Source: Eledone cirrhosa
Lineage: Eukaryota
Direction of reading: 5' to 3'
DNA length: 64,000 nt
Assembly: GCA_964016885.1 (NCBI GenBank)
Contig: OZ024747.1
Location: forward strand, 7,998,001 to 8,062,000
Below the pieces are notes generated by a model that was given only the letters and a program-made list of their open reading frames with translations, made no database searches and was not told the DNA's origin. Numbering within the stretch: position 1 is the stretch's first letter; each line of letters opens with the position of its first letter. The position numbers were made by a program, and so were the translations under genes. Shown here piece by piece: positions 48,290 through 49,340 of the stretch.

Positions 48290-48484
48290 ATAGGAACCAG
48301 TAAGACCCCGACAGCTGAGCTCAAGCCGTTTCAACGGCTAATTCTGGACTAAAATTAGCCGTCGAAACGGCTTGAGCTCAGCTGTCGGGGTCTTACTGGT
48401 TCCTATTACCCACTCTACTACCTCAAGTATTGAGTACTTTGGTGCGTTATGGTCCACCTGGTTCATTACCACATTTCCTTCGTT
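48290..48484 (+). mobile_element. H2 hairpin-plus-tail element
   Basis: Inverted arms 48290-48343 and 48352-48405, tail to CCTTCGTT then (AT)n. Confidence 0.8.
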
Positions 48485-48747
48485 ATATATATATATATAT
48501 ATATATATATGGGCAAATTATATATATATATATATATATATATGAAAAGATGGCTTTTGCAGACCCATCGAAACCGGTCATTTTTTATACCCTTTATTCT
48601 TTCCTTACCTTATAAAATTATATGTTTTTTCACAAAAAAGTACTCTGTCTCTTATATATTCCATGTGCCATTACCAACCTCAATTTTCTCTCTCTCTCTC
48701 TCTATATATATATATAAATATATATGTATATATATATATATATATAA

Positions 48748-48790
<43 letters not shown>

Positions 48791-48795
<5 letters not shown>

Positions 48796-49340
48796 AAGGA
48801 AATGTGGTAAGGAACCAGATGGACCATAACGCACCAAAGTACTCAATACTTAGGGTAGTAGAGAGGGTAATAGGAACAAGTATGACACCGATGGCAGAGC
48901 TCAAGCCGTTTCGACGGCTAATTCTGGACTAAATAAGAATTTTTAGCCTGGTAAATAAATAGCCGAACTTCTCAGGGGGTAATTCCTTATATGGGAAGAT
49001 AGTAATTGTCAAAAGGATTGGTCAAAAATTTGTTGTAAAGACAGATGATTCTATCATGGCATTTGGTGGGAGGTAGGGGTAGCTGAACTTGCCGGTAGAA
49101 CAAAGAGGGAGTGGGGGAAACCCAGTCAAGCTTTGAAAAGTGAAATCTATACAGCAGATTCTAAGGATAGTGTATAGAAGGTCGAAAAAAGTGTACTGGA
49201 GAAGGGTAGGGGGGGGGGGGGGAGTTGAAAGAATAGGTAAATCGAAAGGGAGTAAAAAAAAAACATTATAAAAATAAGGAAATAAATATATAAAAAACAA
49301 TTTCTGGTTACTACTCCATTTCCACAATCACCAAATCTCT
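48791..49340 (-). mobile_element. Longer non-inverted H2 copy (putative Penelope-like pLTR) containing the complete hammerhead
   Basis: Shares the H2 tail; bounded by (AT)n on both sides. Confidence 0.65.
48885..48980 (-). ncRNA. H2 hammerhead ribozyme, slightly mutated
   Basis: Minus: ACCCC-CTGAGAA-GTTCGGCTATTT...AATTAGCCGTC-GAAA-CGGC-TTGAGCTCT-GCCA-TC-GGTGT; sister copies give GCCG-TC-GGGGT, restoring stems I and III and a GUC site. Confidence 0.65.

What the first reader, a model, noticed from the sequence alone, without database searches (positions are those of the whole stretch)
48290..48980. H2 family: the fold-back point lies inside the hammerhead and deletes its CUGANGA half
Seen: the long copy (48980-48885, minus) has the whole ribozyme. 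The three short copies (7816, 36984, 48290) keep the GAAA/stem III/GTC/GGGGTC half (mutated in the 7816 copy), but the upstream half is replaced by an inverted copy turning in stem II or next to GAAA. All three left arms stop at the same point (reverse complement of TTCCTAT), which has AT microhomology to the target. Inference: the ribozyme's own hairpin acts as the cDNA snap-back primer, or a ribozyme-dead non-autonomous derivative was amplified. The 48290 and 48791 copies also face each other tail-to-tail about 300 bp apart.
Basis: partly seen in the sequence, partly recalled or inferred. Interest (0 to 1): 0.7.

Follow-up and report, generated by a model that had tools for sequence, protein, structure and literature searches.

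The report
Capped RNA start splits jumping-gene ribozyme
These DNA hairpins are stumps of a Penelope-like jumping gene, likely made when two copying runs ran off the front end of its RNA, and their ends likely record where that RNA starts (inside the ribozyme) and where the ribozyme cuts, two steps that are hard to see directly.

Summary
The anatomy is real, but the long copy's core is CUGAGAA, not CUGANGA; A8 is family-wide (60 of 61 arms). The repeat is the 3' end plus 79-nt tail of a Hydra-like Penelope-like element, with at least 20,520 tailed copies. Numbering from the tail start, arm ends pile up at -52..-68 and stop sharply there. Copies joined to (TA)n at A-61 carry an extra G in 52 of 100, against 2 of 100 at -57 and 0 of 100 read-through arms: likely a copied cap, so transcription likely starts inside ribozyme loop II. 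A second peak lies at -20, the predicted GUC cut. Hairpin copies are not one clade. Solo tail-less arms, longer left arms and a few chimeric pairs favour two target-primed cDNAs over snap-back. No RNA data could be tested. The scan noted Hydra-type fold-backs on other DNA before; the three notes shown (a few lines each) do not mention the cap or cut-site peaks.

The parts
48791..49343 (-). 5'-truncated read-through copy of the element's 3' end (3' UTR, hammerhead, tail), no inverted partner in the window
   Evidence: 94.6% to the 3' end of the ORF-bearing arm of L191
48885..48980 (-). type I hammerhead-like motif: stem I 5' strand 48980-48976, core CUGAGAA 48975-48969 (C3, A8), stem II, 39-nt loop II, GAAA 48912-48909, stem III, predicted cut between 48890 and 48889
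   Evidence: sequence
48930..48930 (-). A-61, inferred capped transcription start, in TTAGTC inside loop II
   Evidence: family-wide inference, not shown for this copy
48791..48869 (-). 79-nt tail between the two inferred priming sites (-1 and +79)
48290..48353 (-). left (tail-less) arm of hairpin copy, -1 to -63/-64
48353..48485 (+). right arm (-54 to -1) plus tail of hairpin copy
36982..37144 (+). hairpin copy joined through the GCCGT/ACGGC inverted repeat (left arm to -34..-40, right arm from -44..-50) plus tail
7815..8019 (+). hairpin copy: left arm 7815-7874 (to -60), filler ending in G at 7879, right arm 7880-7940 (from A-61), tail 7941-8019

Best explanation
The hairpins are abortive insertions of a Hydra-like Penelope-like retroelement, likely made of two cDNAs primed from the nicked (TA)n target at two internal RNA sites (-1 and +79) that likely ran off the RNA's 5' end and were joined head to head. 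SHOWN: element identity, the two fixed 3' ends, the end distributions, the extra G at -62, the peak at -20, and that short copies arose many times. INFERRED: the usual 5' end is a capped Pol II start at A-61 (some perhaps at -62..-65) inside loop II, so the RNA's front copy of the hammerhead lacks its UGAnAA half from the outset and nothing was deleted. The rarer 5' end at G-20 is the ribozyme's cleavage product, so the A8-core ribozyme likely cuts in vivo. The two cDNA ends are joined bluntly, with filler, or by microhomology, with some trimming. Microhomology includes the ribozyme's own inverted repeats.
For: [quoted passage not shown] Two initiation sites bounding the tail are shown in vitro for another PLE (PMC11167929). 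Ends in 100 consecutive tail-selected copies: right arm 56 at -52..-68, 3 at -69..-124, 7 read-through; left arm 49 of 72 at -52..-68, 1 at -69..-124. Extra base at TA-joined A-61: G 52, T 35, A 8, C 5 of the first 100 of 220. At -57: G 2 of the first 100 of 158 (Fisher p 3e-17). Read-through arms: T 89, C 11, G 0 of the first 100 of 4,868. The G occurs in several subfamilies. Solo tail-less arms: 20 of 40 loci, none with an inverted partner within 400 nt. Left arm longer than right in 21 of 72, right longer in 23. Arms of different subfamilies in L148, probably also L115 and L156. Cut site: 35 of 50 listed short-spaced hairpins have both arms ending at -20 and only 1 has both clearly beyond it (361 loci). 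22 of 50 TA-proximal arms end at -20 against 21 spread over nine neighbouring positions, 7 ambiguous (p 1e-11). Short tandem units jump from the body back to -61..-65 (L325/326, L327, L336, L338, L340, L346), so RNA beginning there runs into the ORF start.
Against: No RNA evidence was tested. Arms are mostly of one subfamily (discordant at -14 in 3 of 60, at -9 in 5 of 60; independent draws would give 53% at -9), which also fits one template or snap-back. Unequal arms can arise by later deletion at a palindrome centre. Ends at -62..-65 mostly lack an extra G, and one small subfamily (L100, L146) may have a templated G at -62. None of the ORF-bearing copies begins at -61; most carry a longer upstream partial tandem. 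Position -20 is 2 nt from the base of stem III, so an RT pause is possible. The link between U3-A8 subfamilies and -20 ends holds for double-ended hairpins (26 of 34 against 50 of 100, p 0.009) but not for single arms (11 of 22, p 0.64). Rfam gave no hammerhead hit on a read-through copy, and folding energy is no better than shuffles (z -0.5 to -0.8).
Confidence: 0.72

Rival explanations
1. Run-off then snap-back: one cDNA primed at +79 runs to the RNA 5' end, folds back on itself and copies back to -1; later central deletions make the arms unequal.
For: Arms are usually of one subfamily. 34 of 72 joints overlap by at least 1 nt. Some turns sit on inverted repeats (L102, L162, L137).
Against: Solo tail-less arms show -1 is a priming end by itself. 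23 of 50 hairpins end at -20 on both arms with untemplated filler, often 1 nt, which leaves no room for a priming loop. Long palindromes have a tail-less arm 1.5-2.5 kb longer than the tailed arm (L191, L193). Chimeric arms exist.
Confidence: 0.13
2. The ends are RT pause sites at RNA structure (inner loop II hairpin near -60, stem III near -20), not RNA 5' ends; the G is ordinary untemplated addition.
For: An inner hairpin covers about -64..-58 in some subfamilies. Stem III begins at -22. Ends are spread over -52..-65.
Against: The G is specific to -61 (52 against 2 of 100) and rare at -20 (3 of 22 single arms). Ends almost never fall just beyond -68. The inner hairpin differs between subfamilies while T(T/C)AGT is kept. 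The peak is at -20, not -21.
Confidence: 0.1
3. A ribozyme-dead hairpin derivative was amplified as a unit (SINE- or MITE-like).
For: The same joint recurs in many copies (30 of 30 loci fetched with the 36984 copy as query; two joints occur 3 and 2 times among 72).
Against: 69 of 72 joints are distinct. Short and read-through copies are interleaved (14 changes against 14.8 shuffled; identical rows in both groups; p-AU 2.65e-10). The recurrent joint occurs in different subfamily variants.
Confidence: 0.03
4. TTTTCATTYAG at -70..-60 is a splice acceptor, and the G-AG before -59 comes from a spliced or trans-spliced leader.
For: The sequence resembles a 3' splice site (recalled consensus). D. virilis Penelope has an intron ending at its hammerhead (PMC4209133).
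Against: No shared sequence lies upstream of the G; it abuts (TA)n or the other arm. Many arms keep templated -62..-65. Body-to-(-61) jumps have no GT donor.
Confidence: 0.02

Closest known systems
Hydra clade of C-terminal-endonuclease Penelope-like elements (Craig et al. 2021, PMC8557442; includes Hydra-1_Obim)
   Same: RW(K/R), DKT, CxCx5C linker, CxxC and CxH around the conserved E and N, (TA)n targeting, hammerhead near the 3' end, inverted 5'-truncated copy with optional tail. The protein resembles Hydra-1_Obim by eye.
   Different: A different family. The six new Hydra hammerheads listed have CUGANGA cores and 4-9 nt loop II; this one has A8 and a loop of about 39 nt holding the inferred start site. 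The tail is 79 nt, not 30-40.
Poseidon PAc of Anolis: internal initiation at two sites (Frangieh et al. 2024, PMC11167929)
   Same: Two RT start sites bound the tail; AT-rich target; both strands are cut and extended in vitro.
   Different: That work does not explain the inverted arm or where the cDNAs stop, and found no RNA-seq reads ending at the hammerhead cut. Here the genomic copies show peaks at a likely cap site and at the predicted cut.
U3-A8 minimal hammerheads of Schistosoma Cercyon PLEs (Cervera and De la Pena 2014, PMC4209133)
   Same: U3-A8 core variant, long helix II, 5-bp helix I, unpaired base at the 5' end of stem II.
   Different: Here stem III is a 5-6 bp hairpin, many subfamily copies have a C3.A8 mismatch, and there is genomic evidence of cutting.
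Penelope of Drosophila virilis and Adineta PLEs (PMC2377424, PMC3846280)
   Same: Internal TATA-less promoter or Inr-like motif in the pLTR; head-to-head inverted pLTRs.
   Different: In D. virilis the start lies upstream of an intron that ends at helix I, so the hammerhead is whole in the RNA's front end. The Adineta paper explains the palindromes by self-priming, possibly on antisense RNA.
L1 twin priming and the extra 5' G of full-length LINE insertions (recalled; PMC311219 and PMC1142468 were not held)
   Same: Two target-primed cDNAs joined by end-joining; cap copied as G.
   Different: L1 inversions do not duplicate the same stretch and are primed at poly(A) and a random internal site. 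Here both arms cover the same 20-65 nt from two fixed sites. It works like a strong-stop product without a tRNA primer.

Membership tests
Hydra-clade PLE | single ORF, RT plus C-terminal GIY-YIG | tested here: inconclusive
   Motifs seen by eye in frameshifted copies L191 and L192; Pfam gave 0 families for 4 of 4 pieces
Hydra-clade PLE | RWK motif and DKT instead of DKG | tested here: met
   LRWRTFF (RWR variant) in L191 and SDKTGN in L192; definition
Hydra-clade PLE | CxCx5C linker, no CCHH, CxxC and CxH near E and N | tested here: met
   CNCPDRSLC, CNLC and CKH in L192; absence of CCHH judged by eye
Hydra-clade PLE | insertion in (TA)n | tested here: met
   left-arm flanks of 72 copies and tail flanks of 100 copies
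Hydra-clade PLE | canonical hammerhead core | tested here: not met
   A8 in 60 of 61 arms, CTGANGA in 1 of 63; no Rfam hammerhead hit
Hydra-clade PLE | placement in the Hydra clade by RT tree | not tested
   Reference proteins were seen only in the paper's supplement and compared by eye
EN+ Penelope-like elements | partial tandems, inverted 5'-truncated copy, optional tail | tested here: met
type I hammerhead ribozyme | three stems around the core with G10.1-C11.1, GAAA and NUH | tested here: met
   96% of cells paired against 23-53% in slid controls (structure derived from these sequences); L040 folds into it at minimum energy
type I hammerhead ribozyme | Watson-Crick 3-8 pair | tested here: inconclusive
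   U3 in 22, C3 in 37, G3 in 2 of 61 arms with A8 nearly fixed (the sample is biased toward the window's subfamily)
type I hammerhead ribozyme | covariation in stems | tested here: inconclusive
   0 two-sided changes in 16 copies; one G-C to A-U change in stem II of an older sister family, seen by eye in L100 and L318
type I hammerhead ribozyme | self-cleavage after NUH | not testable with these tools
   Indirect only: peak of cDNA ends at -20
non-LTR retrozyme | tandem units each with a complete hammerhead | tested here: not met
   Copies are dispersed stumps lacking the 5' half; definition from 10.64898/2026.07.22.740005

The most novel reading that the evidence does not exclude
This Penelope-like family starts transcription inside its own hammerhead, so the mRNA's capped front end carries only the GAAA-stem III-GUC half while the UGAnAA half lies 3 kb downstream. 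The halves could assemble across the RNA's ends (type II topology) or the 3' copy could cut alone. Both internal priming sites sit near the 5' end, giving strong-stop-like cDNAs that either jump to the 3' repeat or are joined to each other. Tens of thousands of genomic hairpins are then a nucleotide-resolution fossil record of cap site, ribozyme cut and double priming.
Probability: 0.45. Interest if true: 0.78.

Novelty: new variant of a known kind. Interest (0 to 1): 0.62.

Why it matters
How Penelope-like elements make their head-to-head inverted ends is open: PMC3846280 proposed self-priming, possibly on antisense RNA, and asked for experiments. [quoted passage not shown] Here copy ends alone point to sense, capped RNA, two primers and a precise cut by a non-canonical A8 core. 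This gives exact, cheap predictions (ends at -61 and -20), and the same counting can be applied to any high-copy PLE family. A start site inside a ribozyme would also be a simple way to keep the cap while retaining a 3' cutter.

Tried and rejected
RNA support: no RNA holder listed; no reads were laid. Rfam: no hammerhead among the 150 of 413 window rows shown, none among 5 on L126. Pfam: 0 families for 4 ORF pieces. A first arm-end tally overstated -65 because palindromic joints mimic the template; a strict rescoring followed. Diagnostic site -14 was mislabelled -15 and is read from its table. Subfamily link between U3-A8 and cutting: positive for double-ended hairpins, absent for single arms, so inconclusive. 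Inverted flank duplication as a general rule: 1 of 72, not above background. In the tree a few longer copies were labelled short because the upstream motif was not matched (L133, L155, L159). Left arms further than 330 nt upstream were not sought, so 28 of 100 copies have none scored. Literature searches found no paper on a cap G, a start inside the hammerhead or cut-site-ended copies in PLEs; the library lacks most subscription papers. The scan's notes gave nothing by sequence.

Full report
Numbering: -1 is the last T of TTCCTAT (window 48870 in the long copy); the tail is +1..+79. Counts from pattern listings were tallied by eye from the first 100 rows shown, after merging repeated rows of one locus.

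1. Observation. Each short copy is (TA)n, an antisense arm from -1, a joint, a sense arm to -1, the tail, (TA)n. Arm extents are 60/61 (7815 copy), about 40/50 with overlap (36982 copy) and 64/54 (48290 copy). The long copy's core is CUGAGAA. Among 63 read-through arms position 8 is A in 60 of 61 scored, and position 3 is C 37, U 22, G 2 (biased toward the window's subfamily). An older sister family also has UGAUAA and a G-C to A-U change in stem II, seen by eye in two copies. The three stems pair in 96% of cells, without two-sided changes within the family. Rfam does not call it.

2. What the element is. Copies that extend upstream carry RT and GIY-YIG-like ORF pieces with RWR, DKT, CxCx5C, CxxC and CxH, the marks listed for Hydra-clade Penelope-like elements (PMC8557442 section 11). 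The unit is about 3.0 kb. Pfam gave no hit and no tree with reference proteins was made, so clade membership rests on motifs. Exact words give lower bounds: 16,653 tail matches, 20,520 tailed arms reaching -25, 4,868 read-through arms, 116 tail-to-body joints. The host is probably a cephalopod; this rests on likeness to Hydra-1_Obim by eye and on the scan's notes, not on a test.

3. The fixed left end is known biology. In PAc two internal RT start sites bound the tail (PMC11167929). Here each site acts alone: of 40 TA-joined arms, 20 end at -1 with no tail and no inverted partner within 400 nt. A similar word follows each site, GAGTACTTT at +26 and GAGCACTTT at +102 (lead from note e1-9506642). 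If it guides priming, priming at +79 would need RNA that runs into the body; this is inferred.

4. Where the turn lies. In 100 consecutive copies chosen by a tail word, right arms end at -52..-68 in 56, at -69..-124 in 3, read through in 7, at -19..-21 in 7, at -22..-51 in 13 and nearer in 14; left arms end at -52..-68 in 49 of 72. That is loop II, with a sharp upstream edge. Where an arm meets (TA)n with one base before A-61, that base is G in 52 of the first 100 of 220. The same design at -57 gives G in 2 of the first 100 of 158. Read-through arms have T 89, C 11, G 0 at -62. The G spans subfamilies and is present in the window's 7815 copy. An untemplated G at a run-off end is what copying a cap leaves, and T(T/C)AGT with A as +1 fits the initiator consensus (both recalled). 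Six loci show the body jumping back to -61..-65, so RNA starting there includes the ORF start. Against: ends at -62..-65 mostly lack G; L100 and L146 hint at one subfamily with a templated G; none of the ORF-bearing copies starts at -61.

5. A second peak at the predicted cut. Of 50 listed hairpins with at most 12 nt between the two GGGGT arms, 12 are blunt at -20 on both arms, 23 have untemplated filler, 14 are ambiguous or have one arm 1-3 nt longer, and 1 has both at -23 (361 loci). Of 50 TA-proximal arms, 22 end at -20, 7 are ambiguous and 21 spread over -19 and -21..-28 (binomial p 1e-11; ends at -20 have more room for filler in this pattern, and with direct joins only p is 9e-5). An extra G is rare here (3 of 22), as expected for an uncapped end. 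Subfamilies with U3-A8 are enriched among double-ended hairpins (26 of 34 against 50 of 100, p 0.009) but not among single arms (p 0.64). An RT pause before stem III remains possible.

6. One cDNA or two. The left arm is longer in 21 of 72 and the right in 23; joints overlap in 34, have filler in 27 and are blunt in 11. In L191 and L193 the tail-less arm is kilobases longer. L164 and L175 pair a -60 left arm with a -20/-21 right arm, and L148 has arms of two subfamilies. Most pairs share a subfamily (3 of 60 and 5 of 60 discordant), so one RNA or one source locus is usual. Snap-back with later deletion is not excluded but needs extra steps.

7. Not a clade. 69 of 72 joints differ. On a tree of 107 arms (91 short, 16 read-through, 125 columns, poorly resolved) the labels need 14 changes against 14.8 shuffled, and one clade is rejected (p-AU 2.65e-10). 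The recurrent 36984-type joint appears in several subfamily variants and is best read as repeated annealing through GCCGT/ACGGC, the alternative hairpin that the window copy prefers.

8. Comparison and novelty. Known: inverted pLTR with tail and two priming sites, internal promoter (PMC2377424), Inr-like motif and a self-priming proposal (PMC3846280), U3-A8 cores (PMC4209133). Not found in ten searches: a cap G in PLE copies, a start inside the hammerhead, or copies ending at the cut. The library lacks most subscription papers. Seen of each paper: PMC11167929 parts 1-2 of 4; PMC4209133 parts 1-2 of 4; PMC8557442 passages, section 11 and supplement rows; PMC3846280 and PMC2377424 passages; 10.64898/2026.07.22.740005 part 1 of 5, supplements closed and not seen; PMC7617806 one reference-list passage; PMC2837659 search listing only; the L1 twin-priming and 5'-junction papers recalled only. 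The supplementary figures of PMC11167929 on read ends were not seen and may bear on the novelty of the end peaks.

9. Verdict. An ordinary class of element, but an unusually clear record of its mechanism. New variant of a known kind, interest 0.62. No RNA test could be run.

Noticed in passing
window 48261-48269 and 48511-48519: A 9-10 nt piece of left flank is repeated in inverted form beyond the TA run on the right of the 48290 copy. L097 shows the like; 1 of 72 other copies, not above background.
   Followed up: partly
window +7638 and -15823: Two copies of another repeat with a canonical CTGATGA...GAAA hammerhead core; further core-like strings at +13291 and +49416.
   Followed up: no
L325/L326, L327, L336, L338, L340, L346: Short tandem units of about 230-360 nt in which the ORF start is joined back to -61..-65, as from template jumps or small circles; another array with 273-274 nt spacing is listed at C3:214146640-214147767.
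   Followed up: partly
L100:-1314, L318:-1318, L088, L073, L009: Older sister family with the same hairpin-plus-tail build, turns near the same place and a UGAUAA core.
   Followed up: partly
L325-L354, +7..+15 and +96..+104: The tail start and the body start are complementary over 9 nt and could enclose the tail in one helix (3 of 4 folds).
   Followed up: partly
L193:2-640: GIY-YIG-like end of another, more distant Hydra-like family with a CNCx5C linker.
   Followed up: no
window 37145 to beyond 37500: A tandem repeat of about 55-60 nt with TA runs begins right after the tail of the 36982 copy.
   Followed up: no
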